A model generated the notes under the pieces. The model was given only the letters and a program-made list of their open reading frames with translations. It did no database searches and was not told the DNA's origin. From an uncultured Clostridia bacterium (lineage in GTDB: Bacteria; Bacillota; Clostridia; Oscillospirales; Ruminococcaceae), in assembly GCA_947625375.1 (NCBI GenBank), contig CANQOC010000005.1, forward strand, positions 45,630-109,629: 64,000 nt of DNA, in the 5' to 3' direction. Position numbers and translations under genes: made by a program. Position 1 is the first letter of the stretch, and the number at the start of each line of letters is the position of its first letter. Of this stretch, positions 12,721-55,080 are shown one piece after another.

Positions 12721-12855
12721 GCACAAATTTATAAAAGTTGCAAGTAGTAGTTAGAGAATAGTAGTCAGTAGTTAGTTATTCTTTTAAAACCGCAAGCATG
12801 AGCGGTGACAAAGCTGCTGTTTACAAAATCCGGCATCTATCCTCTAATCATCTAA

Positions 12856-13245
12856 CTATCTATCCTCCAAATGCAGTCTCTTTTTCAGTCCCTCCTGCAA
12901 TACTCCGGAGAAGTTTATGTGTGCGGATTCGGCCGCTTCGTTGAGCCATGACGGAACGGTGAGCGTTTTCTTTACCGAGCGGGTGTCGTGCGCACGCTTA
13001 TAGGAAAGGTCGTCATAGTCGATTATCATCATGAAATCCGGCGCTTCGACCTTAATCTCCTCTGGACGGGACGGAGCGGGAACAGACTTAAGTCCGTCAA
13101 GATAGAGTCCGACGGCGTCGCGAATCATCTCCACCGCCTCGGCGACGGTTTCGCCCTGTGAAAAACAGCCGTCAAGGTCGGGCACGCTCACCGAATAACC
13201 CTCGGCTTCGGGGTGAAAAACTGCGGGATAATATAGCTTTTTCAT
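12856..13245 (-). CDS. hicB: HicB-family antitoxin
   Basis: N-terminal YPAVFHPEAEGYSVSVPDLDGCFSQGETVAEAVEMIRDA (HicB fold) and a C-terminal RHH-like DNA-binding part. Follows hicA. Confidence 0.88.
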   Translation of the reverse strand: MKKLYYPAVFHPEAEGYSVSVPDLDGCFSQGETVAEAVEMIRDAVGLYLDGLKSVPAPSRPEEIKVEAPDFMMIIDYDDLSYKRAHDTRSVKKTLTVPSWLNEAAESAHINFSGVLQEGLKKRLHLEDR

Positions 13246-13474: not shown

Positions 13475-13675
13475 TTTATAATCCCCACCTTTCAGCGATT
13501 ATATTATAGCACGTATTATACGTACTGTCAAGCGATTTAGAGGTTAGATGATTAGAAGATAGATAGTTAGAGGATAGAAATCCTATCCTCCACTTTTATA
13601 AACTATAAACATTTTCGCGCTCTATCTTCTATCCTCTAACTCTCTAATCATCTGTCCTCTCAATTCTGCCAATCT

Positions 13676-13701
13676 AAAAGCCTTCCTTTCGGAAGGCTTT
13701 C
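13676..13701 (-). terminator. pspA terminator
   Basis: Stem aaagccttcc, loop, stem ggaaggcttt, with a T-run on the minus strand. Confidence 0.75.
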
Positions 13702-13719
13702 TTTACGAATATGTGTGAA

Positions 13720-14408: not shown

Positions 14409-15485
14409 TTATTCCAAAGGCGTTTCGAGAATCCTGCGCGTCTCTTCGTTGCGCTCTTTCTCTTGTTTACGCCGTTTGTTCATGATTATGATAATGATTA
14501 CCGCGACAACTATCACGAGCACGATTATAAGCACAATCTTCGCGATGTCGTTCCCCGTCGTCGTCTTGGTCATAATGCGCTCGGCGGTGCGGTTAAAGGT
14601 GTTTGCGATGGCGTCCTCGGTCGTTCCGTAGCCGTACCACTCCTGGTCGCAAATCGTCCAGAAGATGTCGACCGCCTCGGAGTCCATCACCCCGAGAGCG
14701 TCTGACCCGCCCTCGTAGTGCATATATCCGACGTCGTCGCTGTATTCCTCTTCAAAATAGAAGAACGCGAAGGTATAGCCGTTGCCGATTTCGGTTTCAT
14801 AGTATTCGCTCGCGAATTCCGCCTTTTCTGCGTCGGTTCTGAGCTCGGGGCGGTAGGCGACGAGGTAGACATAAGGCTGTACGCCGGTCATGTCGTAGAA
14901 CTCCCGAAGCTGACGCTCAAGGCCGGAGACCGAGCCATCCTCGCTTATCCAGCCGATTTCGTCGACGACGCAGTCGTTGGTCCACGACGTATTTTCGAGC
15001 TTTTCACGGTTATACGAGCTTGCGGGGACCGCCTCCGAGGAGGAGCCGCCGCCAGTGCCGCCGACCATCGACATTATCAGCATAAATATCACCGCAATGA
15101 TGACGATGACGACCAAGCCGGTTATGCACCCGGAGCAGCCGAAGAGGGAGCTTCGCCCGAACAAGCCTCCGCCGCCGTTGTTGTTTATGATGACGGGGCC
15201 GCTCTGCCGCCGCGATGTGTTATATGTATTCGGCATACCGAAACCTCCGATGCCACCCAAGCCGCCGAACGAGCCGGACGTTCCCGACGTCCTCTGTGCC
15301 GACGGTGACGACGACGGCCGGGACGCGCTTCTGCTGTTTGATGAACCCGCGCGCGACGAGCCGCCGAACGACGCGCGGTGCCCGCCGCCGCTGTGACTCG
15401 ACGAGCGGTGTCCTCCGCCGCTGCTGCTGTGAAAACCTCCGCCGCTGCTGTGGAAGCTTCCGCCTCCGCCGCCCGCTCTGCCCAT
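14409..15485 (-). CDS. Membrane protein with Gly/Ser/His-rich N-terminus and a possible TPM-like domain (PspA-associated)
   Basis: Low-complexity GGGFHSSSGGGHRSSSHSGGGH region, a TM helix, a globular domain of about 190 aa and a second C-terminal TM. The TPM assignment is tentative. Confidence 0.6.
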   Translation of the reverse strand: MGRAGGGGGSFHSSGGGFHSSSGGGHRSSSHSGGGHRASFGGSSRAGSSNSRSASRPSSSPSAQRTSGTSGSFGGLGGIGGFGMPNTYNTSRRQSGPVIINNNGGGGLFGRSSLFGCSGCITGLVVIVIIAVIFMLIMSMVGGTGGGSSSEAVPASSYNREKLENTSWTNDCVVDEIGWISEDGSVSGLERQLREFYDMTGVQPYVYLVAYRPELRTDAEKAEFASEYYETEIGNGYTFAFFYFEEEYSDDVGYMHYEGGSDALGVMDSEAVDIFWTICDQEWYGYGTTEDAIANTFNRTAERIMTKTTTGNDIAKIVLIIVLVIVVAVIIIIIMNKRRKQEKERNEETRRILETPLE

Positions 15486-15499
15486 TTCCGACCGCTCCT

Positions 15500-16393
15500 T
15501 TCCTTAAAAAGCATATTCCGATATAAGTGTAGCATATTTATCGAAAGTTGTCAACTTTTAGAGGGAAAAGGTATTCGCTTCGCTCATGCTATTTTCAGTC
15601 ACCCCTCCCCGACCCTCCCCTCGAGGGGAGGGGGTGTGGAGGAAACTTACACTAATATAATATAGCAAAGTGTACGTCTCACCTTTCTAAAAGGTATTCG
15701 CTGCGCTCATGCTATTATAGACTCCCTCCCCCTTCCCCTCCCACATGGGAGGGGGTTGTATTGCTCATACTTTACAGCGCCGCCTAACGGCGGGGAAAAT
15801 TTGCGTGATGTCATACTTCACTAAATGCGTTCACTTTGTGGCGGACGTAAATGTATCACCTTTGACAACTTCTCCGTCCATTTTCTTCCACACCCCCTGC
15901 CCCCTCTCCCTCAGTGAGAGAGAGGGGGTTCCACCCCACACCCGGCCGTTCACGTTCGTGAACGGCGCGACCACTCCCCTCGAGGGGAGTGGTACTTGGC
16001 ATGGAGGATACTTTGGCAGGTTTTAGAAAAGTTGCGTGCTGACGAACTGCCTTGCTATAAGGAGTCCGCCTGCGGCGGACGCTCCTCGCGTCACTCGGTC
16101 GTGACGCGTTTCGCTGGTTCCCCCACCCCCTATCCCCCTCCCCGACGGGGAGGGGGATACAACACCAAAGTTTGGCTTGCCGCCTATCGGCGGGGAAAAT
16201 TTGTACGACAACTTGACATGCTCAAGGCGGTTCCCCTGCTTCTGACATCTGACCTCTCACTTCTGTTCTCTGAAAGTGCGCAATCCGGCGCGCTTGCGCT
16301 CAGCGAATTCCTTTTACAAGTCCGTACTCCCCCTCTCCAATCGCTCACGCCCCCATCTCCACCCTCTATCCTCCAACTTTCCAATCATCTATC
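15500..16393. repeat. Mosaic intergenic block of hairpin modules
   Basis: Contains aaggtattcgcttcgctcatgct plus ccctcccctcgaggggaggg modules. 16061-16300 is colinear with 21171-21415. Pyrimidine tracts at 16229-16272 and 16345-16394. Confidence 0.9.
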
Positions 16394-16422
16394 TTGACAA
16401 CCTCGAAAAAGTCCGCTATAAT
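16394..16422 (+). promoter_or_regulatory. Sigma-A type promoter of the alaS leader
   Basis: TTGACA (16394-16399), 17 nt spacer, TATAAT (16417-16422). Confidence 0.75.
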
Positions 16423-16435
16423 TTTATCGGAAAAG

Positions 16436-16650
16436 CGTTGACGGGAATGACCGGGTGACTGCCCGAAGAGAGCGCGCGGACGGTGAAAGCGCGCGGCACG
16501 ACCCCCGGGTGCTACCCCCGAGCTCCGCGGAAAACCGCGGCGTCCGACCGGCGTTAGCGGTCGCTAAAGGCGGACTCTGTCCGCGAATTTGGGTGGTACA
16601 GCGAGCGACTTCGCCCCAATTTAAGGGGCGGGGTCTGTATTTTTTCGGAC
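16436..16650 (+). promoter_or_regulatory. T-box leader (Ala specifier) with terminator
   Basis: AGAGA box (gaagagagcg), candidate specifier GCU at 16511-16513 followed by A, T-box sequence aatttgggtggtacagcg at 16587-16604, terminator hairpin gccccaatttaaggggc followed by a T-run. Confidence 0.85.
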
Positions 16651-16687
16651 TGCCGCCGCTCGGAAATAATTTTTTGGAGGAATATAT

Positions 16688-19333
16688 ATGAAATGGACCG
16701 GACTTAACGACCTTCGCGAAAGCTTTCTGACCTTTATGGAGTCAAAGGGCTGCCTGAGGCATAAGAGCTATCCCCTTGTGCCGCAAAACGACAAGAGTGC
16801 CCTTCTCACAATCGCCGGAATGGCTCCGCTGAAGCCGTATTTCACCAAACAGGAGGTTCCGCCGAGGACCCGCATGACGACCTGTCAGAAGTGCATACGC
16901 ACGAACGACATCGAAAACGTCGGCAAGACCGCGCGTCACGGAACTTTCTTCGAGATGCTCGGAAACTTCTCCTTCGGCGATTACTTTAAAAAAGAGGCCA
17001 TCCCGTGGGCGTGGGAGTATTTCACAAAGGTGCTCGAAATCCCAGAGGAAAAGCTCTATGTGACCGTCTATGAGGACGACGACGAGGCCGCGAAAATCTG
17101 GCACGAGGACGTCGGTCTTCCCGAGGAAAAAATCTTCCGCTTCGGGCGGGTGGACAACTTCTGGGAGGCCGGAATCGACGGCCCCTGCGGACCCTGCTCC
17201 GAAATCTATTACGACCGTGGACCCGAATACGGCTGCGGCAAGCCGGACTGCGCCGTCGGGTGCGACTGCGACAGGTATATGGAGGTCTGGAACCTCGTTT
17301 TCACACAGTTTGAGAGGCACGAGGACGGGACCTATACCGAGCTTGAACAGAAGAACATCGACACCGGAATGGGACTCGAACGCCTTGCGACGGTGATGCA
17401 GGGGGTCGACTCAATCTTCGACGTCGACACCGTCAAGGCAATAAGGGACCACGTCTGCCGGATTGCCGGCTGTGAATACGGCGTCGACCACAAAAAGGAC
17501 GTCTCAATCCGCGTCATCACCGACCACATCAGGGCGGTCACCTTCCTCGCCTCCGACGGCGTCCTTCCGTCGAACGAGGGAAGAGGATATGTCATGAGAC
17601 GGCTTCTGAGAAGAGCCGTGCGGCACGGAAAGCTCCTCGGAATAAACGGTCTCTTCCTCAAAGACCTTGTACGGACGGTCGCAGACTGCTCGATGTCGGA
17701 ATACAGCGAGCTCGACGAAAAATACGACTACATCGTAAAGCTCCTCACAAACGAGGAGAAGAACTTCAACGACACAATCGACCGCGGAATGGTGATGCTC
17801 GGGGGATATATCGACGAGCTTACGGCGTCGGGCAAAAAGGTCCTCGACGGAAAGAAGTGCTTCTTCCTCTCCGACACATACGGCTTCCCGATTGACCTTA
17901 CCCGCGAAATTCTCGAGGAAAAGGGCCTTGAATGTGACGAGGAAGGCTTCAAGGAGGCATTGCAGGTCCAGAAGGACACCGCGAGGGCGGCGCGCGGCGA
18001 CTCGAAATACATGGGCGCCGACGAAACCGTCTTCCACCGAATCGACAGGGAGTATTCGACCGAATTCGTCGGATATGAGCGGCTCGAGGCCGAGTCGGTC
18101 ATCGACTTTATCGCGACCGAGGACGAGCTGATTGAAGCCGCCGGCGCTGGCGACGAGGTATATATCGTCTCAAAGTTGACCCCGTTCTATGCCGAGAGCG
18201 GCGGACAGGTCGGCGACCGCGGCGAAATCACCACAAAGACCGGTAAATGCGAGGTCGTCGACACCAAAAAGGCGGTCGGCGGAAAGACCGCTCACAAGGT
18301 CAGGGTTGTCGAGGGCGCAATCGAGGTCGGACAGACCGCCGAGTTCAGGGTCGACCGCGAATACAGGCTTGCGGTCATGAGGAACCACTCCTGCGCTCAC
18401 CTTCTCCAAGCGGCGCTCCGCTCGGTCCTCGGGGACCACGTCCACCAGGCCGGACAGCTCGTCGACAGCGAAAGGCTCCGCTTCGACTTCAACCACTTCA
18501 GCGCGATGACTCTCGACGAGATACAGCGCGTCGAAATGCTCGTCAACAGCTTTATTCTCCGCGCGCTCGACATCACCACACAGGTCCTGCCGATTGAAGA
18601 GGCGAGAAAGCTCGGCGCGATGGCGCTCTTCGGCGAAAAATACGGCGAGACAGTTAGGGTCGTCTCGATGGGAAACGCCTCGATGGAGTTCTGCGGCGGC
18701 ACTCATATGGACAACACCTCTAAAATAGGTCTGTTTAAGATAATCTCCGAAAGCTCGGTCGCCGCCGGCGTCAGAAGAATCGAGGCGGTCACCGGAAAGG
18801 GCGTCCTCGAGGTGATGGGTCACCAGATTGAAATGCTCAACGAAGCCTCGGGAATCCTTAAGCTCACCAACCAGAACGAGCTTGTCGGACGGGTCAAGGG
18901 GCTTATGGAGGAAATCCGTGCGCTCGAAAAGGACAAGTCCGAGCTTGCGGCGTCGATTGCCGAAATGCGCTCGAAGTCTTTGATGGACCACACCGTCGAC
19001 GTCAAGGGAATCAAGCTTATCACCGCGATGTTCAACCCGATGAAGCCGGACGAAATCAAGCTTATGGCCGAGAAGATAAGAGACAAGGTTCCCGAAATCG
19101 TCTGCGTAATCGCGGGGGTAAACGGCAAGGCCGCGAACATCGTCGTGACCGCCGGAAAGGAAGCCGTCGCGAAGGGTGTCCACGCCGGAAAGGCGGTCGG
19201 AAAAATCGCCGCGGTCACCGGTGGACGCGGGGGCGGACGCCCCGACACCGCGATGGCGGGCGTCGGAGACATCTTTAAGATAGACGAGGCGCTCGCCGCC
19301 GCCGAGGAAATCGTCGCAGAGTTTATATCATGA
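16688..19333 (+). CDS. alaS: Alanine--tRNA ligase
   Basis: 881 aa. Class II catalytic core, editing-domain zinc motifs HSCAHLL and CGGTHM, C-terminal DHHA1-like region. Confidence 0.98.
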   Translation: MKWTGLNDLRESFLTFMESKGCLRHKSYPLVPQNDKSALLTIAGMAPLKPYFTKQEVPPRTRMTTCQKCIRTNDIENVGKTARHGTFFEMLGNFSFGDYFKKEAIPWAWEYFTKVLEIPEEKLYVTVYEDDDEAAKIWHEDVGLPEEKIFRFGRVDNFWEAGIDGPCGPCSEIYYDRGPEYGCGKPDCAVGCDCDRYMEVWNLVFTQFERHEDGTYTELEQKNIDTGMGLERLATVMQGVDSIFDVDTVKAIRDHVCRIAGCEYGVDHKKDVSIRVITDHIRAVTFLASDGVLPSNEGRGYVMRRLLRRAVRHGKLLGINGLFLKDLVRTVADCSMSEYSELDEKYDYIVKLLTNEEKNFNDTIDRGMVMLGGYIDELTASGKKVLDGKKCFFLSDTYGFPIDLTREILEEKGLECDEEGFKEALQVQKDTARAARGDSKYMGADETVFHRIDREYSTEFVGYERLEAESVIDFIATEDELIEAAGAGDEVYIVSKLTPFYAESGGQVGDRGEITTKTGKCEVVDTKKAVGGKTAHKVRVVEGAIEVGQTAEFRVDREYRLAVMRNHSCAHLLQAALRSVLGDHVHQAGQLVDSERLRFDFNHFSAMTLDEIQRVEMLVNSFILRALDITTQVLPIEEARKLGAMALFGEKYGETVRVVSMGNASMEFCGGTHMDNTSKIGLFKIISESSVAAGVRRIEAVTGKGVLEVMGHQIEMLNEASGILKLTNQNELVGRVKGLMEEIRALEKDKSELAASIAEMRSKSLMDHTVDVKGIKLITAMFNPMKPDEIKLMAEKIRDKVPEIVCVIAGVNGKAANIVVTAGKEAVAKGVHAGKAVGKIAAVTGGRGGGRPDTAMAGVGDIFKIDEALAAAEEIVAEFIS

Positions 19334-20782: not shown

Positions 20783-20785
20783 AGC

Positions 20786-21797
20786 AAAAATAAAAGTTTT
20801 CGATTGAACCTTTTTCAAAAGGTTCACGAGAGTCCAGAGGCGAGCAGCCTCTGGTCGCGACCGCAGTCGCGAAATCCTATACGAAGTGCGCTCCGCAAGG
20901 GGTGAATTGAAAAAGCAGTCCGGTGGACTGTTTTTTCAAGAGGGGACGACCTGTAAGAGAGGGCGTCCCCTTTATATTTCCGTCATGCGACAGCATGGCG
21001 GCACCTTGCGTCAATGCGGCGTCTGCACAAACTTATCCCGCCGACAGGCGGCACTCTCGCCTTTAGCTATGCAGAGCCCCCTCCCATGTGGGAGGGGATT
21101 GCTTTGTCAAAGCTTAGTGAGCCGCCCGACTGCGGGAGAAATTTGTGACAGTACCGTACGCTGCTAAAAAGGAGTCCACCTAACGGCGGACGCTCCTCGC
21201 GTCACTCGGCCGTGACGCGTTTCGCCTGTTCCCCCACCCCCTACCCCCTCCCCGCCGGGGAGGGGGTTATGCGTCGCTAAGCTTTTGATTGCCACCTGAC
21301 GGCGGGGAAAAATTGAGCGGCAACAAGACTTGCTCAAGGCGGGTCTGTTGGCTCTGATATCTGACAATTTCAATTCTGCTCTCCGACCGGGCGCAGTCCG
21401 GCGCGCTTCGCGCGCAAACGAAAGGAGCAGGAAAACTCCCTCCGGAGTTTTCCTGCTCCTTTCGTTTCGGCAGCCTTCGGCTGCCGCGGACTGCGCCCTC
21501 ATGGGAGCTGAAGCCTAAGCTATGCGTTCCCCCTTCCCATGTGGGAAGGGGGACAGGGGGATAGGAGTTTATAAATAGCATGAGCGCAGCGAATTCCTTA
21601 TAGCAAGGTATGACACCGCGCTCATGTTTTATTTTACCTGCGCAAGTGTCCTCCCCGCCGGTACCACTCCCCTCGAGGGGAGAGCAGTCAGAATACAGAT
21701 ATCAGAAGTTAGAAATCAGATTCTATCCTCTATCTTCCATCATCTAATCTCTAACTTCTGACATCTGACTTTCTCACTTCTGTTCTCTGTCAGCGGC
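20786..21797. repeat. Mosaic intergenic block of hairpin modules (about 1 kb)
   Basis: Starts with aaaaataaaagttttcg plus palindrome 20805-20826. Shares ordered modules with 24262-24650 and 45165-45690. Carries nested hairpin 21391-21497 and ends in an inverted purine/pyrimidine tract pair at 21690-21795. Confidence 0.9.
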
Positions 21798-22193
21798 TCA
21801 ATACGTCTCCATCTGCCCGCTGAACATTCCGCGGAATCCGAAGCGCTCGTAAAACGGTCTGAGACTCTCTTCGTATATCACCGAAATCATGTAGATATGC
21901 CTCGACCTGAGATATTCAATCATTCTGTTCATCAGCTCGGTGCCGATGCCCCTGCCCTGACAGTCCGGCGAAACCGTCAAGTCCTGAATATATGCGTCGG
22001 TCACGCCGTTTGATACACAGTCGATATATCCGACAAGCCTTTCGCCGTCATAAGCCGCGATGTGGCAATACGACGTCATCAGCGGGTTCTTATATTCGTC
22101 TTCCATTCGGTTCCAGCCGACGGATTCGCGCAAATCCGCCAAATCCTTTGCCGACACTTTTTCATTTAATTTATATAACATATCTGCCTTCAC
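21798..22193 (-). CDS. GNAT-family N-acetyltransferase
   Basis: Acetyl-CoA binding motif QGRGIGTELMNRMIEY. 131 aa. Confidence 0.85.
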   Translation of the reverse strand: MKADMLYKLNEKVSAKDLADLRESVGWNRMEDEYKNPLMTSYCHIAAYDGERLVGYIDCVSNGVTDAYIQDLTVSPDCQGRGIGTELMNRMIEYLRSRHIYMISVIYEESLRPFYERFGFRGMFSGQMETY

Positions 22194-24261: not shown

Positions 24262-24650
24262 GCAAAAATAAAAGTTTTCGGTCCACCCTTTTTCAAAAGG
24301 GTGGCGAGAGTCCAGAGGCGAGAAGCCTCTGGCCGCGACCGCAGTCGCGGAACACTTGCGAAGCGAAGCGCAGGAGGGTAGTCAAAACAATTCGGTGAAT
24401 TGTTTTGACGTAGGGAACCCTCGCCGGGGGTTCCCTACTTGCTGAGCGATGAGCGAAGCAAGCAAAAAGCACAGTTATGCTCAAATATCCCCCGCCGCAA
24501 GGCGGCACTGCAAGGGCGTCCCCTTATGATACCGTCATGCGTCAGCATGACGGCACCTCATGGGTACAAAGATTCCCCCGTTCTTCCCTCTCCCCTACCC
24601 GCTCAGATGTCGGAAGTCCAATTTCTATCTTCTATCCTCTAACCTCTATC
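24262..24650. repeat. Mosaic intergenic block of hairpin modules
   Basis: aaaaataaaagttttcg plus palindrome 24283-24304, ccagaggcgagaagcctctgg, ccgtcatgcgtcagcatgacgg, and a terminal pyrimidine tract at 24612-24650. Confidence 0.9.
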
Positions 24651-25754: not shown

Positions 25755-25989
25755 ACAAATCCTTCCTTTCGGCTTTTTATTTAATTGTATACTCTGCACG
25801 GGAGTTTGTCAAGTTAGAGGGTTGGAGGATAGATGATTAGAGGGTAGAAGATAGAGCGTTGGAGGATAGAAGTCCCCAAAAAATGACCAATCACAAAATA
25901 ATCCTGCAAATTGGACGGGGTTATGCAGGGTGTACACCTTAAAAGCGCGGTAATTATGAATATTTGGAGATTATGTTATTCATTTTCGG

Positions 25990-31265: not shown

Positions 31266-31353
31266 GAAAAGGTGAAGCGGGACAACGCATGAGGGCGGGG
31301 TTCCGCTTTTTTGATTTCTAACTTCTATCCCCCAACCCTCTACCCCTCCATTA

Positions 31354-31382
31354 TTGACATTCCCTCCCCTTTGTGGTAAAAT
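31354..31382 (+). promoter_or_regulatory. Sigma-A promoter of metY-metA
   Basis: TTGACA (31354-31359), 17 nt spacer, TGgTAAAAT extended -10 (31374-31382). Confidence 0.65.
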
Positions 31383-40271: not shown

Positions 40272-40447
40272 ATCAAATCCTCCTTTAAATCAAAAAACTC
40301 CGGACTTATTATAATCCAACCCGCCGCTGTTGTCAACCGGATTAGAGGTTAGAAATTAGAGATTAGAAATTAGAAGTCAGAAAAATGCCCGCACGGTTAG
40401 ATGCGGGCGATTTTAAGGAAAAAGCTGTTATGCCGTTGTCGGTTAAA

Positions 40448-40708
40448 TCAGTCTCCCGAGCCGACCGGGCCGTTATATCCGCACCAGTCGCAGACAAGGC
40501 TGTTTCCGCCGTCGTACAGATAGATATACGACCCGCCGGACTTCTTGCACATCGGGCAGCAGGGCGCCGGGCGCGTCTTCTGCTCCGCGCCGTCGGATTT
40601 TTTCAGCATCGCGCCGACGCTCTTAATCACGTCGCCGACAATTCCGCCCCCGACAGCTCCCGAGAGCTCGCCGTCTTTAAGCTCGCAATCCTCTTTTCTG
40701 TTGGACAT
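40448..40708 (-). CDS. Array A member A10: double-glycine-leader peptide with zinc-ribbon-like core
   Basis: Leader ...ELKDGELSGAVGG. Core GIVGDVIKSVGAMLKK, a linker, then CCPMCKK...CDWCGYNGP. Confidence 0.75.
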   Translation of the reverse strand: MSNRKEDCELKDGELSGAVGGGIVGDVIKSVGAMLKKSDGAEQKTRPAPCCPMCKKSGGSYIYLYDGGNSLVCDWCGYNGPVGSGD

Positions 40709-40751
40709 TCCGTCAGCCTCCTTTCGTCCTCGGCCGGTCGGCCTTGGGTTA

Positions 40752-41069
40752 TCATCTCATCGTGACAAAGCCGAATTCGTCTTTTCCGATAGAGTCAGGC
40801 TTCGGGGGTTCTTTTTCCTCATGCTTTGGGCGGAACATGGACAGCCAAAAGTCTCCGCACGCTTCCAAAAAATCGTCAAGGATTTCAATTCCTCCGGCGG
40901 CGCCTTCGATTTCCTCGTCAGAAATCTCTCCGCTCCTCGCGTTTATCTTAGAGAAAAACTTCTCGGCGTCTTCCGGCGCGAGGTCCTTGCCGTTTTCCTT
41001 TGCAAGCTCGATAAGCTCGCCGGCGGACTTTGCCGCCCTTGCCCTTTTAATGAATTCTTCTTGTGTCAT
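40752..41069 (-). CDS. Array A member A9: Nif11-type-leader precursor
   Basis: Leader MTQEEFIKRARAAKSAGELIELAKENG...SGEISDEEIEGAAGG. 45-aa core IEILDDFLEACGDFWLSMFRPKHEEKEPPKPDS... Confidence 0.8.
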   Translation of the reverse strand: MTQEEFIKRARAAKSAGELIELAKENGKDLAPEDAEKFFSKINARSGEISDEEIEGAAGGIEILDDFLEACGDFWLSMFRPKHEEKEPPKPDSIGKDEFGFVTMR

Positions 41070-41092
41070 AATATTATCTCCTTTCGGTATTT

Positions 41093-41410
41093 TTATCTCA
41101 TCGTGACAAAGCCGAATTCGTCTTTTCCGATAGAGTCGGGCTTCGGGGGTTCTTTTTCCTCATGCTTTGGGCGGAACATGGACAGCCAAAAGTCTCCGCA
41201 CGCTTCCAAAAAATCGTCAAGGATTTCAATTCCTCCGGCGGCGCCTTCGATTTCCTCGTCAGAAATCTCTCCGCTCCTCGCGTTTATCTTGGAGAAAAGC
41301 TTCTCGGCGTCTTCCAACGCGAGGTTATTGCCGTTTTCCTTTGCAAGCTCGATAAGCTCGCCGGCGGACTTTGCCGCCTTTAATGTTTTAATAATTTCTT
41401 CGTTAGCCAT
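41093..41410 (-). CDS. Array A member A8: Nif11-type-leader precursor (paralog of A9, identical core)
   Basis: The C-terminal two thirds are identical in protein to A9, while the N-terminal leader is diverged. 341-bp tandem duplication. Confidence 0.8.
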   Translation of the reverse strand: MANEEIIKTLKAAKSAGELIELAKENGNNLALEDAEKLFSKINARSGEISDEEIEGAAGGIEILDDFLEACGDFWLSMFRPKHEEKEPPKPDSIGKDEFGFVTMR

Positions 41411-41458
41411 AATAATATCCTCCTGTAAATAAGTATCGGCTTTACTGTCCGAAGATTC

Positions 41459-41782
41459 TCAGTTCTTAATGATAACCTTCTTATTACGCGGATCCAACAG
41501 CTGGCAGAGCAGCATATCGGGTTCATGACCCAGATGTCTGCAGGTTCCGCAGCACCCCTGAAGAATAACCTTGGCTTCGCCGTTGGTAATGCCCTTTTGG
41601 CGCGCGTAAAGGGAAATATTCATTTCGCTCGGAGTGCTGTCGCCCGGCTGATACTGTCCGATAATACACTTGGTGTCAAGCTTAATGACGGGATAGTCGA
41701 GAGAGCCTTCGCCCCCGCCCGCCGCGGCGCTGAGCTTAACGTCGTTAATTTCGCTGTGCTTAATAATCTCTTCATCTGCCAT
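41459..41782 (-). CDS. Array A member A7: short GG-leader precursor with 84-aa core
   Basis: Leader MADEEIIKHSEINDVKLSAAAGG. The core ends ...LQGCCGTCRHLGHEPDMLLCQLL... Confidence 0.72.
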   Translation of the reverse strand: MADEEIIKHSEINDVKLSAAAGGGEGSLDYPVIKLDTKCIIGQYQPGDSTPSEMNISLYARQKGITNGEAKVILQGCCGTCRHLGHEPDMLLCQLLDPRNKKVIIKN

Positions 41783-41823
41783 AATATCGCCTTCTTTCTT
41801 AACGATTAAATTAACCCGGGTTA

Positions 41824-42159
41824 TTAGTTTAGATATAACGGTCCTTCATATCCGCAGTCGTCACAGTAAATCATCTTTGTGCCGTCGGGAGCGTCGTGAA
41901 TAAAAATCCATGCCGACGACGTCTGACCGCAAATCGGGCATTTTTCGGGAGTCCAAGGCGGCGCCGCGGGAGTGGGAGCTTTCGGCTCTTTCTGCTTTTT
42001 CGGCTTAGAGTCCTTTCCACCGTAAAACAAACCGCCGATAGATTCCTTGACCCAGTCAACTACTCCCCCGCCGGCGACATTGTCGAGATTGTCGTCCGAG
42101 ATTTCGTGCGGCTCGGCGGCCTCGATTTTTTCTTCTTTTTTGATTTCCTTTTCAGACAT
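41824..42159 (-). CDS. Array A member A6: GG-leader peptide with zinc-ribbon-like core
   Basis: Leader ...HEISDDNLDNVAGG. Core GVVDWVKESIGG, a Lys/Pro-rich linker, then CPICGQ...CDDCGYEGP. Confidence 0.75.
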   Translation of the reverse strand: MSEKEIKKEEKIEAAEPHEISDDNLDNVAGGGVVDWVKESIGGLFYGGKDSKPKKQKEPKAPTPAAPPWTPEKCPICGQTSSAWIFIHDAPDGTKMIYCDDCGYEGPLYLN

Positions 42160-42205
42160 AATATTATCTCCTTTAAATAAATTTCGTCAGTCGGATATGC
42201 GGTCA

Positions 42206-42451
42206 TCAGACCGAGGACAAGGGCCCCTCATATCCGCACAGCAAGCATTTAATCATAACCGTGCCGTCATCGGCCGCGGTGCCGAAAACAAAAACATTGT
42301 CCACAGGCTTATGGCAAAAGGGGCAGAGGTCGGGTTCCTTCGGCTTCTCCCAAGGATAATGCAAATCCGCCTTAATCCAATCATCGATTGCTCCCCCTCC
42401 CGACGCCTTTTCGAGAGCGCCGTCCGAGAGCTCGCTGTTAAGCCTTTTCAT
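42206..42451 (-). CDS. Array A member A5: GG-leader peptide with zinc-ribbon-like core
   Basis: The ATG at 42451 follows SD aaggagga. Leader MKRLNSELSDGALEKASGG. Core GAIDDWIKADL...CPFCHK...CLLCGYEGP. Confidence 0.75.
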   Translation of the reverse strand: MKRLNSELSDGALEKASGGGAIDDWIKADLHYPWEKPKEPDLCPFCHKPVDNVFVFGTAADDGTVMIKCLLCGYEGPLSSV

Positions 42452-42474
42452 TGCAGCTCCTCCTTCGCGGGTCA

Positions 42475-42657
42475 TCAAAGCCTGCACATGCCGTTGCCGC
42501 AATATTGTCTGCAGTTGTCACAGGACTTATCTTTACTGCCATACTTCCCATTAAAAAGGTCGCAGTAATGCTCGGGCGGGCAGTCGTGACCCCCGTCGAC
42601 CCCGACGCTCTTTCCGCCGGTAACCTTCTCGGTTTCAATGTCTTTAGATTCTTTCAT
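42475..42657 (-). CDS. Array A member A4: bacteriocin-type GG-leader, 6-Cys core
   Basis: MKESKDIETEKVTGG then KSVGVDGGHDCPPEHYC...SCDNCRQYCGNGMCRL. Confidence 0.8.
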   Translation of the reverse strand: MKESKDIETEKVTGGKSVGVDGGHDCPPEHYCDLFNGKYGSKDKSCDNCRQYCGNGMCRL

Positions 42658-42682
42658 TGTAAAGTCCCCTTTCTTCAGTCAA

Positions 42683-42868
42683 TCAAAGTCTGCACCTGTT
42701 GTTGCCGGAATACGCCTGACAGTTGTCACAGGACGTATCCTTCTTCCACTTATCCTTCGCGCAAAATCCTCCGCAGGTATGCGCGGGCGGGCAGTCGTGA
42801 CCCCCGTCGACTCCGACGCTCTTTCCGCCGGTTGCTTCCTCAATCTCGAAATCATTAAGCTCTTTCAT
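42683..42868 (-). CDS. Array A member A3: bacteriocin-type GG-leader, 6-Cys core
   Basis: MKELNDFEIEEATGG then KSVGVDGGHDCPPAHTCGGFC...SCDNCQAYSGNNRCRL. Confidence 0.8.
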   Translation of the reverse strand: MKELNDFEIEEATGGKSVGVDGGHDCPPAHTCGGFCAKDKWKKDTSCDNCQAYSGNNRCRL

Positions 42869-42891
42869 TGTAAATCCTCCTTAAAATAATG

Positions 42892-43110
42892 TTATCGTGC
42901 ATGGTTGCACAGGTCTTTTCCGTCGTTGTTTTTTCCGCAATGGTGACGGCAGTTGTAACAGGAATCCGGGTCTCCCGGAAGTCTTCCGCTGCCCTCTTTC
43001 TCGTGATAATACTTGCATATCTTGCTTTCGGGACAGGTCCAATAGCCGTAGACGTTGACGGTTCTTCCGCCGGTGACTTCCTCAATCTCGAAATCATTAA
43101 GCTCTTTCAT
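42892..43110 (-). CDS. Array A member A2: bacteriocin-type GG-leader, 6-Cys core
   Basis: MKELNDFEIEEVTGG then RTVNVYGYWTCPESKIC...GDPDSCYNCRHHCGKNNDGKDLC. Confidence 0.8.
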   Translation of the reverse strand: MKELNDFEIEEVTGGRTVNVYGYWTCPESKICKYYHEKEGSGRLPGDPDSCYNCRHHCGKNNDGKDLCNHAR

Positions 43111-43127
43111 TGTAATTCCTCCTTAAA

Positions 43128-43355
43128 TTACGGTTCCCACCAAGCTAATGTGCACAGGTTTTCTCCCTTTTGATTATATCCGCAGAAGAAGCGGCAGTAG
43201 ATGCAGGAATCAGGGTCTCCCGGCTGTTTGACCATGCCATCCTTAAATAAATAATGCTTACACATACGGCTTTCGGGACCAACCCAATAACCTATCGGGT
43301 TGACACTTCTTCCTCCGGCGGCCGTCTCGAGTTCCTTGTCGTTAATTTCTTTCAT
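43128..43355 (-). CDS. Array A member A1: bacteriocin-type GG-leader, 5-Cys core
   Basis: MKEINDKELETAAGG then RSVNPIGYWVGPESRMC...GDPDSCIYCRFFCGYNQKGENLC. Confidence 0.8.
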   Translation of the reverse strand: MKEINDKELETAAGGRSVNPIGYWVGPESRMCKHYLFKDGMVKQPGDPDSCIYCRFFCGYNQKGENLCTLAWWEP

Positions 43356-44334: not shown

Positions 44335-45162
44335 ATGTTAAAAACGCTTTTCCCGAACGGACTGAAAAAGGCGTTCACGCTTAGCTATGACGACGGCTGT
44401 TATGATGATATCAGACTTTTGGGCATGATGTCAAGCCGCGGGATTCGCGGGACGTTCAACATTAGCTCGGGAATAACCCGTCCCGAGGGGCAGGAATTTA
44501 TCGGCGCTTGGGAGAGAATGACGCCGTCGGAGCTTGAAAACTATGACCGCGAGGGAATCGAGGTCGCGGTTCACGGCGTCCGCCACCGCGATTTTACGAA
44601 AATTTCGGAGTCCGAGCTTATCTATGAGATTATGGCGGACAAGAGCGCGATTGAGCGCCGGTTTTCGAGGGTCATACGCGGCGCGGCGTACCCCTATGGC
44701 AGCTTTGACGACCGCTCGGTCGAGGCGCTGAGGCGCTGCGGGATAAAATACTGCCGGACAGTCTGGTCCGACGATTCGTTAAAAATGCCGGCGGACTGGC
44801 TTCGGCTGCGCCCGAGCTGTCACCACAGCGACCCGAAGCTCGGCGAGATGACCGAAAGGCTTTTGGGCGAGGATGAGCCGGAGAGGAGAATGCTCTATGT
44901 CTGGGGGCATACGCCCGAGTTCCGGCGGGACAGCAACTGGGAGCTGATGGAGAGGCTGCTCGACCGCGTCGCGGGGCGGAAAGACGTCTGGTACGCGACG
45001 AACATCGAGATTTGCGAGTATGAGCTTGCGGCGCGTGCGCTCGAATACTCCGCCGACGGCGGGTACGTCTTTAATCCGACGTCGCTCGAAATCTGGCTCG
45101 AGCGCAACGGCGAGCCGATGAGCGTCAAGCCGAACGAGACCGCCGAAGCGTGGAGAGAATAA
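44335..45162 (+). CDS. Polysaccharide deacetylase-family protein
   Basis: NodB-like FTLSYDDG motif and HGVRH. The ATG at 44335 follows SD agaggag. Confidence 0.8.
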   Translation: MLKTLFPNGLKKAFTLSYDDGCYDDIRLLGMMSSRGIRGTFNISSGITRPEGQEFIGAWERMTPSELENYDREGIEVAVHGVRHRDFTKISESELIYEIMADKSAIERRFSRVIRGAAYPYGSFDDRSVEALRRCGIKYCRTVWSDDSLKMPADWLRLRPSCHHSDPKLGEMTERLLGEDEPERRMLYVWGHTPEFRRDSNWELMERLLDRVAGRKDVWYATNIEICEYELAARALEYSADGGYVFNPTSLEIWLERNGEPMSVKPNETAEAWRE

Positions 45163-45164
45163 AA

Positions 45165-45690
45165 ACTAAAAGTTTTCGCTCAAGCCTTTTTCAAAAGGCT
45201 TGCTGTGCAAGCCGGTTTTGTTCCTGCTCGACCGCCCTCGCGATACCGAACCGTTTCGGTTGTCTTGCAGACAAAACCGGCGTGCACCGGTCCAGAGGCG
45301 AGTAGCCTCTGGTCGCGCTCCGCAGAGCGCGAAATCCCCTACGAAGTGCGCTCCGCAAGGGGTGAATTGCAAAAAACTATCCTGTGGATAGTCGATTACG
45401 ACAAAATGAGGGCAAAGGCGAAGCCTTTGCTTAGGCGTCGCTGACGAAAGTACGACACTGTAGTCATTTGGGCGACGCCTTGAGGCCACTGCAAGAGAGG
45501 GCCTCCCCTTATGATTCCGCCGTGCGACAGCGCGGCGGCACCTCGTAGTCACTCGTGCGACGCCTTGGGACCCCTCGCCGGGGGTCCCCTGCTTGCCGAA
45601 CGATGAGTGAGGCAAGTGAAAAGTCCGGCGATGTGCAAGCCTTCCCCGTCATGCGACAGCATGACGGCACCATCGTCCCCACACAAAAAA
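45165..45690. repeat. Mosaic intergenic block of hairpin modules
   Basis: aaaaactaaaagttttcg plus palindrome 45181-45202, ccagaggcgagtagcctctgg, tgcgctccgcaaggggtgaattgc, ccgtcatgcgacagcatgacgg. Colinear with the 20.8 kb and 24.3 kb blocks. Confidence 0.9.
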
Positions 45691-47997: not shown

Positions 47998-48274
47998 TTT
48001 CGGCACCTCCTAAAGTATTTGCCCGCACGGGTGATGCGGACTTTGTTATTGCCTCCCTCCCTGACTCGGCGGAAAAGTCACCGCCGGTCTGCGGGCGCAC
48101 TAAAAAAGACCCCGCAAAGAGGTAAAGCTATTTTATCACGCCTCCTCCCGCTTGTCAAGCGTTTGGAGTAAAAATTTTTTAGATGATTAGATGATTAGAA
48201 GATAGAAGATGGTAATCTTGACGGTTGCGGGATGATATGATAAAATGATGAAAAAACAGAGAGAGGGTCGCGGA

Positions 48275-54660: not shown

Positions 54661-54852
54661 ATGAAGATGGCAGATTCAAAGTACACAAGCGTGAGATACT
54701 GTCCTCATCTCGGGCACAACGTGATTATCGAGCAAAGGATTCGCGGCGGGGTTATTTGTCTCGAGTGCCTCAACCGTGCGGACTGCGGGTATTCGGAGGA
54801 AGGCTGCCGGAATAGACTGATAGAGGATAGACGGTTAGAGGATAGAAGTTAG
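54661..54852 (+). CDS. Small leaderless Cys-rich protein (63 aa)
   Basis: SD aaagggag lies upstream of the ATG at 54661. MKMADSKYTSVRYCPHLGHNVIIEQRIRGGVICLECLNRADCGYSEEGC... The last ~10 codons and the stop lie in a purine tract. Confidence 0.5.
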   Translation: MKMADSKYTSVRYCPHLGHNVIIEQRIRGGVICLECLNRADCGYSEEGCRNRLIEDRRLEDRS

Positions 54853-55075
54853 AGAAGTGCGTCATGCGGGTTTGATGAGACATCGCACCCCGGGCGCAGC
54901 CGGCGCGCGGAGCGCGCGAGGGTATAAAAGGAAAACTCCTGCCGGAGTTTTTCTTTTTATACCCTCCGGCCGCCTTTCGGCGGCCGCGGGCTGCGCCCGT
55001 CGGAGAGCGAAGTCAGGAGGGTTGATGCAGGAACTCACTCCCCCGCCCCCGATTTTCTGACAATCTGTACTCTAA
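54815..55075. repeat. Purine tract plus nested-hairpin module (third copy)
   Basis: Purine tract gatagaggatagacggttagaggatagaagttagag. Nested hairpin at 54892-54998, homologous to 3521-3623 and 21391-21497. Confidence 0.85.
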
Positions 55076-55080
55076 ACGGC

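What the first reader, a model, noticed from the sequence alone, without database searches (positions are those of the whole stretch)
25805..25868. A dispersed family of purine-rich TAGAGG/ATAGAAG/GATTAGA tracts marks at least 15 intergenic sites
Tracts such as gttagagggttggaggatagatgattagagggtagaagatagag occur on the purine strand at 2792-2856, 12740-12785 (variant), 13538-13582, 21690-21733, 25805-25868, 40333-40383, 48178-48213 and 54815-54856. As the complement they occur at 3641-3692, 12836-12868, 13619-13662, 16229-16272, 16345-16394, 21734-21795, 24612-24650 and 31305-31350. All are at gene boundaries. The purine strand carries TAG in all three frames and many SD-like GAGG/GGAGG strings, whereas the complement is stop-free. 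Three genes end inside a tract: hicB (...LEDR-TAG), the flavoprotein at 24646 (its TAG stop lies in gatagagg) and the small ORF at 54661 (...IEDRRLEDRS-TAG). pgsA stops 1 nt before a tract. I do not know of a described element like this. Possible roles include all-frame translation stops, ribosome or protein binding, or recombination boundaries.
Basis: seen in the sequence. Interest (0 to 1): 0.65.

Follow-up and report, generated by a model that had tools for sequence, protein, structure and literature searches.

The report
Degenerate heptamer repeat arrays flanking operons
The purine-rich tracts are short tandem arrays of a degenerate 7-base unit (GATAGAG, GTTAGAA, GTCAGAA), a gut-Clostridia counterpart of the heptanucleotide repeats known from cyanobacteria and Beggiatoaceae, and in this genome they sit at the edges of transcription units in a fixed orientation.

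Summary
The tracts are real and far above chance: 46 YAGA-N3-YAGA hits against 2 expected, and 14 chained arrays against 0.1 in null sequences. The consensus is G-W-Y-A-G-A-D, with a near-invariant AGA core and variable linker positions. That places them with dispersed intergenic heptanucleotide repeats (STRR, TAACTGA, LSSR), here in an uncultured Ruminococcus-like Clostridium.

All 17 arrays are non-coding or overlap only a gene's last codons. Eight lie 0-20 nt upstream of a sigma-70-like -35 box, seven of them next to near-consensus promoters. All eight have the pyrimidine strand running in the direction of transcription. The alaS promoter is confirmed by a T-box leader that begins 7 nt after its -10. 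Four to six arrays start at or just after a stop codon or terminator with the purine strand as sense. Five pairs are convergent, and two of them fold into long hairpins.

A 98%-identical strain differs by exactly one unit. Several close relatives lack arrays altogether, so they are labile and not essential.

Function is unproven. My best reading is a slippage-driven repeat family kept as a polar spacer at unit boundaries. An insulator role or a binding-site role remains open.

The parts
2792..2865 (+). Heptamer array with the purine strand on +. It follows the rplL terminator hairpin (2760-2777) and its T-run. Outer arm of a convergent pair with 3641-3692.
   Evidence: rplL identified by homology to L126. 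Terminator. The inner part is lost in strain L132.
3641..3692 (-). Heptamer array (GGTAGAG ATTAGAT GATAGAG x3 GATAGAA) that starts right after the pgsA stop codon (3693-3695). It is followed by a 15-bp terminator hairpin at 3587-3554.
   Evidence: Strain L132 has exactly one GATAGAG unit fewer and two substitutions.
12740..12785 (+). Variant array with units like GTYAGTA. Its purine-strand 5' end overlaps a predicted promoter, (-)12743-12715, TTGCAA-17-TAAAAT with TG, for the nine-gene operon 12669 to 3693.
12835..12868 (-). Heptamer array that contains the TAG stop of hicB (12856-12858).
   Evidence: Gene table of L002.
13536..13582 (+). Heptamer array that ends 5 nt from the -35 of the hicA promoter. 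Forms a hairpin with 13619-13678.
13503..13531 (-). Predicted hicA promoter, TTGACA-17-TATAAT (12/12, TG-extended).
13619..13678 (-). Heptamer array that begins in the T-run of the pspA terminator hairpin (13679-13705).
16229..16274 (-). Heptamer array of CAGA-type units, about 125 nt upstream of the alaS -35. It shares a 35-nt block (94% identity) with 21722-21795.
16345..16394 (-). Heptamer array whose last unit abuts or overlaps the -35 of the alaS promoter.
   Evidence: Homology with relatives begins at 16392.
16394..16422 (+). alaS promoter, TTGACA-17-TATAAT (12/12). A T-box leader at 16429-16621 starts 7 nt after the -10.
   Evidence: T-box at 77 bits, E 1.2e-16.
21687..21721 (+). Heptamer array, left arm of an abutting inverted pair between the convergent alaS and recG operons.
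21722..21795 (-). Heptamer array (about 10 units) that starts 2 nt after the stop of the GNAT acetyltransferase gene (21798). With 21687-21721 it folds into a 26-bp stem.
   Evidence: Fold: dG -51.3, z -5.9.
24612..24650 (-). Heptamer array that contains the TAG stop of the FMN reductase gene (24646-24648). It lies between that gene and recG.
   Evidence: Gene table of L001.
25813..25872 (+). Units: GTTAGAG GGTTGGAG GATAGAT GATTAGAG GGTAGAA GATAGAG CGTTGGAG GATAGAA. It directly abuts the -35 of the flavodoxin/FMN-reductase operon promoter.
25784..25812 (-). Predicted flavodoxin operon promoter, TTGACA-17-TACAAT (11/12). The real start codon is ATG 25754.
   Evidence: Gene table of L001.
31305..31350 (-). 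Heptamer array that fills the gap between the terminator of the upstream gene (31291-31310) and the promoter at 31354-31382 (TTGACA-17-TAAAAT) of the Cys/Met PLP enzyme and metA operon.
40341..40383 (+). Heptamer array (ATTAGAG GTTAGAA ...) between the terminator (-)40408-40387 and the promoter (-)40336-40308 (12/12) of a GH5 cellulase gene.
48178..48213 (+). Heptamer array 20 nt upstream of the promoter (-)48158-48130 of rpmG-secE-nusG-rplKA. A weaker promoter-like site, (+)48218, lies on its other side and is a possible exception to the polarity.
54811..54856 (+). Heptamer array downstream of the 52558-54547 peptide gene cluster. Convergent pair with 55055-55076, enclosing a hairpin module at 54929-54997.
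55055..55076 (-). Weak three-unit array 4 nt upstream of the greA-lysS promoter (+)55081-55109 (12/12).

Best explanation
The tracts are tandem arrays of 3-10 copies of a degenerate heptanucleotide, G-W-Y-A-G-A-D (GATAGAG, GATAGAA, GTTAGAG, GTCAGAA and others). About 30% of units are 6 or 8 nt long.

They are a lineage-specific microsatellite-like repeat family. They are the same kind of thing as cyanobacterial STRRs, the TAACTGA repeats of Beggiatoaceae, and the heptanucleotide 'long simple sequence repeats' found in many prokaryotes.

Shown:
- Arrays gain and lose whole units between strains.
- They turn over quickly between relatives.
- They are confined to the spacers at the edges of transcription units.
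- Promoter-side and stop-codon-side arrays have a consistent orientation: the C-poor purine strand reads 5' to 3' away from the adjacent unit. That means pyrimidine strand towards a promoter's -35, and purine strand as sense after a stop codon. Arrays that only follow a terminator are mixed.

Inferred:
- Arrays arise by replication slippage and local copying. They may be seeded by unit-like sequences such as TAG-A or TGA-G stop codons and the reverse complement of the -35 (TGTCAAG).
- They survive only where they are harmless, in the harmless orientation. A ribosome or ORF leaving a gene meets stops within three units or fewer. The stretch upstream of a promoter is G-free in the sense direction, so it has no start codons or Shine-Dalgarno strings and no self-structure.
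- They therefore act at most as passive, polar spacer DNA between a terminator and the next promoter, not as an essential cis-element.
For: - Period-7 tandem structure.
- Strong enrichment.
- Whole-unit indel plus substitutions in a 98%-identical strain, with no change in 100%-identical contigs.
- Patchy distribution. Relatives with 87-91% identical AlaRS have arrays only in L126, L130, L131 and L120. L125, L127, L128 and L129 have none, including upstream of the conserved alaS promoter.
- At orthologous spots the arrays differ in content (alaS upstream in L120 and L131) or in orientation (after rplL in L126), which indicates independent gain.
- No conserved flanks.
- All 17 arrays are non-coding; none lies in the roughly 15 kb low-GC mobile island.
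- Polarity. 8 of 8 promoter-adjacent arrays are pyrimidine-sense. 7 of 17 arrays have a promoter scoring at least 11/12 firing away from the purine 5' end, against 0 of 17 at the 3' end and 0.7% of random windows. 4 of 4 arrays within 5 nt of a stop codon are purine-sense. 5 of 5 pairs are convergent.
- Literature on the known kind: PMC4679880, bioRxiv 10.1101/2022.06.06.494920.
Against: - Passive tolerance does not readily explain why arrays sit 0-5 nt from the -35 in six promoters even where hundreds of bases of spacer are free, for example 16345-16394 and 25813-25872.
- The AGA core is nearly invariant (A 94%, G 100%, A 98%) while the neighbouring positions vary freely among A, G and T but avoid C (4-9%). 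Selection for a recognised motif would produce that pattern; random decay of a microsatellite would not.
- Orientation should not matter for DNA that is never transcribed.
- The seeding idea is untested.
- The sample is one 64-kb window plus a few relatives.
Confidence: 0.45

Rival explanations
1. Polar transcription insulators. Each transcription unit is guarded at its ends by arrays oriented so that an RNA polymerase entering from outside makes a G-poor, C/U-rich, unstructured RNA. That polymerase could be reading through from an upstream operon or running antisense from a convergent one. Such RNA would load Rho. Where two arrays face each other, the read-through RNA instead folds into a long hairpin. 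Polymerases and ribosomes leaving the unit meet purine-rich RNA with stops in all frames.
For: - The symmetric layout of pyrimidine array, promoter, operon, stop, purine array fits several units. Examples are the nine-gene operon 12669 to 3693 between arrays 12740-12785 and 3641-3692, hicAB, and the flavodoxin/FMN-reductase operon.
- The complement strand has 0-8% G in most arrays and 11-23 YC dimers.
- Inverted pairs fold at dG -41 to -51 with z -4 to -6.
- In relatives the array sits in a composite with a GC hairpin plus T5 that points towards the downstream promoter.
- That Rho suppresses antisense and read-through transcription in Firmicutes is from my own knowledge, not tested here.
Against: - Presence of rho in this organism is unknown.
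- A-rich arrays such as 40341-40383 give only about 23% C.
- A rut site would not need an invariant UCU core.
- In hairpin-forming pairs the C-rich arm would be sequestered.
- After terminators the orientation is mixed: two purine-sense, two pyrimidine-sense.
- Close relatives do without arrays.
Confidence: 0.2
2. Binding arrays on double-stranded DNA for a sequence-specific protein that polymerises head to tail on YAGA heptads next to the -35. This would be an UP-element-like or activator or nucleoid-protein site, as ToxR and H-NS use the TTTTGAT heptads upstream of the ctxAB promoter.
For: - Seven or eight of the 18-19 best sigma-70-type promoters in the window have an array at about -36 to -100, always in one orientation.
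- The core is invariant while the linkers vary.
- Heptad repeats upstream of a -35 with a regulatory role have precedent (bioRxiv 10.1101/2021.05.14.444153; 10.1101/2022.06.06.494920).
Against: - Units are 7 or 8 nt and the gaps to the -35 vary (0-20 nt), so there is no fixed helical phasing.
- Half the arrays lie at gene ends, not at promoters.
- Orthologous promoters in relatives work without arrays.
- Genes downstream share no functional theme.
- No candidate protein was identified.
Confidence: 0.15
3. REPIN- or MITE-like mobile DNA. Convergent array pairs would be the inverted arms, with subterminal binding repeats, of small non-autonomous elements that carry variable cores and are moved by a transposase encoded elsewhere. 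Solo arrays would be remnants.
For: - Five of five neighbouring pairs are convergent, and they enclose other dispersed modules. The pair 2792/3641 encloses the 122-nt repeats and a hairpin module. The pair 54811/55055 encloses module 54929-54997.
- Two pairs form long hairpins.
- A 35-nt block is shared by arrays 16229 and 21722.
- In an Oscillospiraceae contig (L009) an array, 45-nt spacer, array unit recurs three times.
Against: - There are no conserved termini, cores or target-site duplications around the window's arrays.
- Arms of three pairs resemble each other only at the family level.
- No transposase or RAYT gene lies in the window.
- The whole-unit indel between strains is slippage-like.
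Confidence: 0.12
4. An RNA-level element on the purine strand. It could be an all-frame stop and ribosome trap. It could instead be a periodic UAG-N4 binding site for an oligomeric RNA-binding protein of the HutP or TRAP type.
For: - 13 of 17 arrays carry stops in all three frames, and there are many GAGG or AGGA strings.
- Two genes use an array's TAG as their stop codon.
- The UAG-N4 spacing equals the HutP site spacing as I recall it. This is from memory and was not tested.
Against: - Eight arrays lie upstream of promoters in the opposite orientation, so they would not be in sense RNA.
- Two arrays lie after terminators.
- CAGA and TGGA units lack UAG.
- 7- and 8-nt units are mixed.
- No hutP-like gene was examined.
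Confidence: 0.08

Closest known systems
Cyanobacterial STRR and other heptamer repeats (STRR1-3; TTTTGAA heptamers near Nostoc promoters and start codons)
   Same: Dispersed, mostly intergenic tandem arrays of a 7-nt unit, present at many loci in a genome. They occur near promoters or start codons. Function is unresolved, and an unidentified binding partner is suspected.
   Different: The phylum (Clostridia) and the unit differ. Here the units within one array are heterogeneous around a fixed AGA core. The arrays lie upstream of the -35 or after stop codons, with a fixed polarity.
TAACTGA direct repeats of Beggiatoaceae, cyanobacteria and Bacteroidetes (PMC4679880)
   Same: A heptamer with stop codons in all frames, 2-6 copies per set, sometimes 'split' by related heptamers. 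It is strongly orientation-biased relative to genes, patchy among relatives, and of unknown mechanism.
   Different: TAACTGA sets mostly end 1 nt upstream of start codons in the forward orientation, overlapping the ribosome-binding-site position. The arrays here avoid the 5' UTR. They lie upstream of the -35 in the reverse orientation, or downstream of stops.
Heptanucleotide long simple sequence repeats (Mrazek et al. 2007, as summarised in PMC4679880)
   Same: The 7-nt unit class is the commonest long simple sequence repeat in prokaryotes. A slippage origin is proposed. The one-unit indel between strains seen here fits that.
   Different: Typical long simple sequence repeats are near-perfect copies of one unit. 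These arrays are short and internally degenerate, yet they keep a core.
REP / BIME / REPIN elements
   Same: Extragenic, at operon ends and between operons, often in inverted pairs that form hairpins. They are embedded in mosaics with other small repeats and differ between strains.
   Different: REPs are 20-40 nt imperfect palindromes with a conserved tag, moved by RAYT transposases. These are tandem heptads with no palindromic unit, no conserved ends, and no RAYT in view.
TTTTGAT heptad repeats upstream of the Vibrio cholerae ctxAB promoter
   Same: Tandem heptads placed immediately upstream of a -35 in one orientation.
   Different: That is a single locus with a perfect AT-rich unit and known binders (ToxR, H-NS), and its copy number tunes expression. 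Here there are many loci and no known binder, and half the arrays are at gene ends.

Membership tests
Dispersed heptanucleotide tandem repeats (LSSR / STRR-type) | Head-to-tail copies of a 7-nt unit | tested here: met
   TRF reports periods of 7, 14 and 21. There is a lag-7 excess. On segmentation, 66 of 96 units are exactly 7 nt and the rest are 6 or 8 nt.
Dispersed heptanucleotide tandem repeats (LSSR / STRR-type) | The same unit family recurs at many separate, mainly intergenic loci of one genome | tested here: met
   17 arrays in 64 kb, all non-coding or overlapping only gene ends.
Dispersed heptanucleotide tandem repeats (LSSR / STRR-type) | Copy number changes by whole units (slippage) | tested here: met
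   Strain L132 lacks exactly one GATAGAG unit in the array next to pgsA. This is a single observed case.
Dispersed heptanucleotide tandem repeats (LSSR / STRR-type) | Near-perfect identity of the units within an array | tested here: not met
   Arrays mix 3-6 different units. Only the AGA core is constant.
Cyanobacterial STRR sensu stricto | Cyanobacterial host and STRR1-3 unit sequences | tested here: not met
   The host is a Ruminococcus-like Clostridium. The unit is GWYAGAD.
TAACTGA repeats | Unit TAACTGA, forward orientation, ending a few nt before the start codon | tested here: not met
   The unit is different. Promoter-side arrays are 58-72 nt from start codons, upstream of the -35, in the reverse orientation.
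REP / REPIN | Imperfect palindromic unit of 20-40 nt with a conserved terminal tag | tested here: not met
   Single arrays are direct repeats with no conserved ends.
REP / REPIN | Inverted doublets able to form a hairpin | tested here: inconclusive
   5 of 5 pairs are convergent. Only two pairs (13536/13619 and 21687/21722) fold into long stems.
REP / REPIN | A cognate RAYT transposase in the genome | not testable with these tools
   None lies in the window. The rest of the genome is not available.
MITE | Conserved terminal inverted repeats, a conserved core and target-site duplications | tested here: not met
   Similarity between copies stops at the array edges. The hairpin motifs that flank arrays in relatives are absent from the window.
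Promoter-upstream heptad operator (ctxAB type) | Tandem heptads directly upstream of the -35 | tested here: met
   Eight arrays lie 0-20 nt from a -35. The alaS promoter is validated by the T-box leader.
Promoter-upstream heptad operator (ctxAB type) | A regulator that binds the heptads and changes transcription | not testable with these tools
   This needs binding and reporter experiments.
HutP/TRAP-type RNA operator | NAG triplets at regular short spacing in a transcribed leader that overlaps a terminator | tested here: not met
   The spacing fits UAG-N4. However, about half of the arrays lie upstream of promoters in the antisense orientation, and none lies in a leader.
Rfam RNA families | Match to any curated covariance model | tested here: not met
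   The window yields only two tRNAs at gathering scores. In 15480-16700 only the T-box matches.

The most novel reading that the evidence does not exclude
The arrays are dedicated, polar boundary elements that bracket operons. A heptad-reading factor would use them to shield each transcription unit from polymerases entering from outside and to set the upstream edge of its promoter. That factor could be Rho loading on the G-free incoming RNA, or a sequence-specific protein reading YAGA every 7-8 nt. This would be a sequence-encoded operon insulator system not described in bacteria.
Probability: 0.2. Interest if true: 0.75.

Novelty: new variant of a known kind. Interest (0 to 1): 0.45.

Why it matters
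Intergenic heptanucleotide repeats have been known for decades in cyanobacteria, and since 2015 in Beggiatoaceae, without a mechanism.

This family adds a gut Firmicute lineage and an unusually clean positional rule. Arrays abut -35 boxes and stop codons with a fixed polarity, pair convergently, and keep an invariant AGA core while their linkers drift.

If that rule holds genome-wide, it gives a concrete handle for testing whether such repeats insulate transcription units or recruit a protein. The tests would be orientation swaps in reporters, Term-seq, and pull-downs. If the rule does not hold, the family is one more fast-evolving microsatellite, useful mainly as a strain marker in metagenomes.

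Tried and rejected
1. The single genome-contig scan used TAGADRW x4 + TAGA. It returned more than 120 hits across many phyla, and about half are perfect single-unit microsatellites. The pattern itself dictates where variation may fall. The scan therefore says nothing about homology or about selection on the core. It did identify the rabbit-gut Clostridia relatives.

2. Orientation statistics in the about 120 unrelated loci used my own ORF calls. I rejected them. ORFs are mechanically extended up to the stops inside arrays, which inflates both 'purine-sense at gene ends' and 'pyrimidine-sense at starts'. Outside the 0-20 nt bin the trend disappears.

3. Promoter adjacency in unrelated taxa gave 4 against 1 of 126 arrays. 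There is no general rule. The -35 abutment is a property of this genome.

4. The composite seen in relatives (hairpin, array, hairpin plus T5) is absent from the window.

5. There is no flank conservation and no MITE signature.

6. Extending beyond both ends of the window added about 17 kb but no new arrays. These were the rpoBC region and a low-GC integrative element. No out-of-sample test of the polarity was therefore possible.

7. A replication-oriented polar motif of the KOPS or Chi type is rejected, because both orientations are about equally frequent within 64 kb.

8. CRISPR is rejected: the period is 7 nt and there are no spacers.

9. H-DNA or triplex formation is unlikely. The tracts are not pure purine-pyrimidine and are not mirror repeats.

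10. The HutP idea rests only on remembered spacing, and the array positions do not fit it.
Full report
**Observation.** The index tract at 25805-25868 and the fifteen other listed sites are there as described. Three tests put the family well above chance.
- The signature YAGA-N3-YAGA occurs 46 times on the two strands, against 2.0 +/- 1.3 in second-order Markov shuffles.
- Chaining a position weight matrix gives 14 arrays of at least three units, against 0.1 in null sequences.
- A motif-free autocorrelation scan finds 13 regions at lag 7. Lags 5, 10, 11 and 13 give one each and lag 8 gives four. Lags that are multiples of three are populated by coding periodicity.

**Anatomy.** Tandem Repeats Finder reports periods of 7, 14, 15 and 21 at the same places. 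The tracts are therefore tandem repeats. I segmented fifteen arrays end to end. This gave 96 units, of which 66 are exactly 7 nt and the rest 6 or 8 nt (typically GATTAGAG). The consensus is G(77%)-A/T-T/C-A(94%)-G(100%)-A(98%)-A/G/T. Information is concentrated in the AGA core and is lowest at positions 7 and 2. C is rare on this strand, at 0-8% in most arrays. At the three variable positions C is at 4-9%, although A, G and T all occur freely there.

- The complement is not stop-free. 16 of 17 arrays carry stops there, because TTAGA units read TCTAA.
- 13 of 17 arrays have stops in all three frames on the purine strand.
- hicB and the FMN reductase end inside an array. pgsA ends immediately before one, and a GNAT acetyltransferase gene ends 2 nt before one.
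- The ORF ending at 54852 is not called as a gene, either by my codon model or in the gene table of the identical contig L136.

**Organism.**
- Contigs from ENA rabbit-gut assemblies carry identical or 98-99% identical sequence.
- The alaS gene is about 80% identical in nucleotides to an 'uncultured Clostridia bacterium' rabbit MAG (L120).
- The AlaRS protein is 72-73% identical to Ruminococcus spp..
- The window is ordinary chromosome carrying rplJL, pgsA, recA, hicAB, pspA, alaS, recG, citrate synthase, nusG-rplKA and greA-lysS. From about 57 kb onward it is a low-GC integrative element.

**Where the arrays sit.** All 17 are non-coding or overlap only the last 4-12 nt of a gene, in a window that is about 81% coding. 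None lies in the roughly 15 kb mobile island. They fall into two positional classes.

*Promoter class, eight arrays.* The pyrimidine strand runs in the direction of transcription and ends 0-20 nt before a sigma-70-type -35.

| Gene or operon | Promoter | Match |
|---|---|---|
| alaS | 16394-16422 | 12/12 |
| hicA | (-)13531 | 12/12 |
| GH5 cellulase | (-)40336 | 12/12 |
| greA | 55081 | 12/12 |
| flavodoxin operon | (-)25812 | 11/12 |
| Cys/Met enzyme and metA operon | 31354 | 11/12 |
| rpmG-secE-nusG | (-)48158 | 11/12 |
| nine-gene operon ending in pgsA | (-)12743 | 9/12 |

- Seven of 17 arrays have a promoter scoring at least 11/12 firing away from the purine-strand 5' end within 75 nt. None has one at the 3' end, and only 0.7% of random windows do.
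- These seven are among the 18 best promoter-like sites in the window.
- The alaS promoter is independently validated. A full-length T-box leader (E 1.2e-16) starts 7 nt after its -10. Sequence homology with relatives begins exactly at the -35.
- The strand upstream of these promoters is almost G-free, at 2-7% G in seven of the eight. Promoters without arrays have 11-29% G there.
- One possible exception exists: a 10/12 site at (+)48218 on the other side of array 48178-48213.

*Gene-end class.* The purine strand is the sense strand. The array starts at or within 2 nt of the stop codon in four cases (pgsA, hicB, the GNAT gene, FMN reductase). In two cases it starts in the T-run of the terminator hairpin (rplL, pspA). 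Arrays that merely follow a terminator show both orientations: 2792 and 13619 are purine-sense, 31305 and 40341 pyrimidine-sense. The robust rules are therefore 'pyrimidine towards the -35' (8 of 8, P about 0.004) and 'purine after an abutting stop' (4 of 4).

*Pairs.* Ten arrays form five neighbouring pairs: 2792/3641, 12740/12835, 13536/13619, 21687/21722 and 54811/55055. All five are convergent, with the purine 3' ends facing each other. Several enclose other dispersed repeat modules. Two pairs fold into long hairpins, for example a 26-bp stem with dG -51.3 and z -5.9 for 21675-21810 on the minus strand. As a result, several units are bracketed by inverted arrays at their promoter and their stop codon. 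These include the nine-gene operon 12669 to 3693, hicAB and the flavodoxin/FMN-reductase operon.

**Evolution.**
- Contigs that are 100% identical show no change in any array.
- A strain at about 98% identity (L132) lacks exactly one GATAGAG unit in the array next to pgsA and has two substitutions at variable positions. It has lost the inner half of the array next to rplL. It has about one copy of the neighbouring 122-nt repeat instead of 3.4. Strain L133 has three substitutions in the rplL-side array.
- Another strain (L004) has different sequence immediately upstream of the alaS array.
- Among relatives with 79-91% identical AlaRS, arrays are present in L126, L130, L131 and L120 (locus GC 0.53-0.55). 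They are absent from about 85 kb of L125, L127, L128 and L129 (GC 0.46-0.52), including upstream of the conserved alaS promoter.
- Upstream of alaS, L120 and L131 have arrays in the same orientation but with different units and copy number.
- After rplL, L126 has an array in the opposite orientation to the window's, and there it precedes a co-directional gene.
- In those relatives the array lies inside a composite of hairpin, array, then GC hairpin plus T5. That composite is absent from the window.
- In the window, similarity between arrays never extends into the flanks.

The arrays are thus labile, repeatedly gained, and dispensable for the promoters they adjoin.

**What it is.** The defining features of dispersed heptanucleotide tandem repeats are met: a 7-nt unit, many intergenic loci, and whole-unit polymorphism. 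Unit homogeneity is not met. The family resembles cyanobacterial STRRs and the Nostoc promoter-proximal heptamers (bioRxiv 10.1101/2022.06.06.494920). It also resembles the TAACTGA repeats (PMC4679880). Those are likewise orientation-biased, 'split' by related heptamers, patchy among relatives and unexplained. It differs from them in host, in unit and in position, being upstream of the -35 or after stops rather than on the ribosome-binding site. It also differs in internal degeneracy around a fixed core. It is not a REP, REPIN or MITE by the tests available, and no Rfam family matches.

**How it works.** Shown: the tandem structure, slippage-type change, rapid turnover, confinement to the spacers at unit edges, and the polarity.

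Inferred, as my preferred reading (0.45): this is a slippage-driven repeat family. It may be seeded by unit-like motifs such as TAG-A or TGA-G stops and TGTCAAG, the reverse complement of the -35. It survives only where harmless and in the harmless orientation. At most it acts as a passive polar spacer.

Three features argue against this reading, in favour of some recognition or function: the tight abutment to the -35 where free spacer is available, the invariant core with C-avoiding linkers, and the orientation of DNA that should not be transcribed. The rivals are:
- a polar insulator, through Rho loading on G-poor incoming RNA or hairpins in read-through RNA (0.2);
- a heptad-binding DNA protein, as at the ctxAB promoter (0.15);
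- REPIN-like mobile arms (0.12);
- a purine-strand RNA element (0.08).

None of these can be decided without the whole genome, transcript-end maps or binding assays.

**What led nowhere.**
- The broad pattern scan cannot speak to homology.
- ORF-based orientation statistics in unrelated taxa are confounded by the arrays' own stops.
- Promoter abutment is not seen in other taxa.
- Extending the window gave no new arrays.

**Verdict.** This is a real and statistically solid feature, and a new variant of a known kind. It is moderately interesting because of its unusually clean boundary polarity. Its function is unproven.

Noticed in passing
window 2946-3369 and 15566-15742; also L004 1-120: A 122-nt repeat (AAAGGTATTCGCTTCGC..GCTAT..AGTCACCC..CCCCGACCCTCCC). 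It is tandem x3.4 between rplL and pgsA and x2 upstream of alaS. Copy number differs between strains: 3.4 copies here against about 1 in L132.
   Followed up: partly
window 3521-3626, 21392-21497, 54929-54997: A dispersed module of about 105 nt that contains a 15-bp terminator-like hairpin (AGGAAAACTCC....GGAGTTTTCCT) and a second GC hairpin. It is always close to heptamer arrays, and once lies between a convergent pair.
   Followed up: partly
window 20784-21018, 24262-24559, 45159-45648; L054 579-754, L065 522-677, L132 19612-20280: Another dispersed intergenic element family of about 170-300 nt with several hairpins. It lies after the alaS operon, upstream of recG, near rplA, and after rpoC in a sister strain. 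It is shared with related MAGs.
   Followed up: no
window 16073-16155 and 21184-21266: An 83-nt repeat (86% identity) that ends in a C-rich/G-rich palindrome (CCCCTCCCCG.CGGGGAGGGG).
   Followed up: no
window 40448-43355 (-) and 52558-54547 (+): About 14 paralogous small genes (50-164 aa). They encode a leader-like N-terminus (...GEISDEELE.AAGG or ...EE.TGG) followed by Cys-rich cores. They include a 341-nt tandem duplication (40749-41430, 95% identity). They look like a large family of RiPP or bacteriocin-type precursor peptides with double-glycine leaders. None has a Pfam hit.
   Followed up: partly
window 16429-16621 (+): A full-length T-box leader lies upstream of alaS. It scores 77 bits, below Rfam's gathering score of 93, so the default scan missed it.
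   Followed up: yes
window ~57200-64000 and beyond (L136 10604-18065): A low-GC (41-47%) integrative element with an SNF2 helicase, a C5 cytosine methylase, HTH proteins, RelB, DUF3801, a large serine recombinase and TnpW. It contains no heptamer arrays.
   Followed up: partly
window promoters at 1556, 1620, 13531, 16394, 28910, 40336, 55081, 61781, 63745: There is an unusually high number of perfect 12/12 TTGACA-17-TATAAT matches: nine in 64 kb. Across the four segments scanned, promoter-like matches run at 2-4 times the shuffled expectation.
   Followed up: no
L009 (Oscillospiraceae MAG contig, 4 kb, coverage 329x) 131-939: Three copies of a unit made of GC hairpin, five-heptad array, conserved 45-nt spacer, inverted array and GC hairpin. 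This suggests that in other Oscillospirales the same heptads form the arms of a multicopy inverted-repeat element.
   Followed up: no
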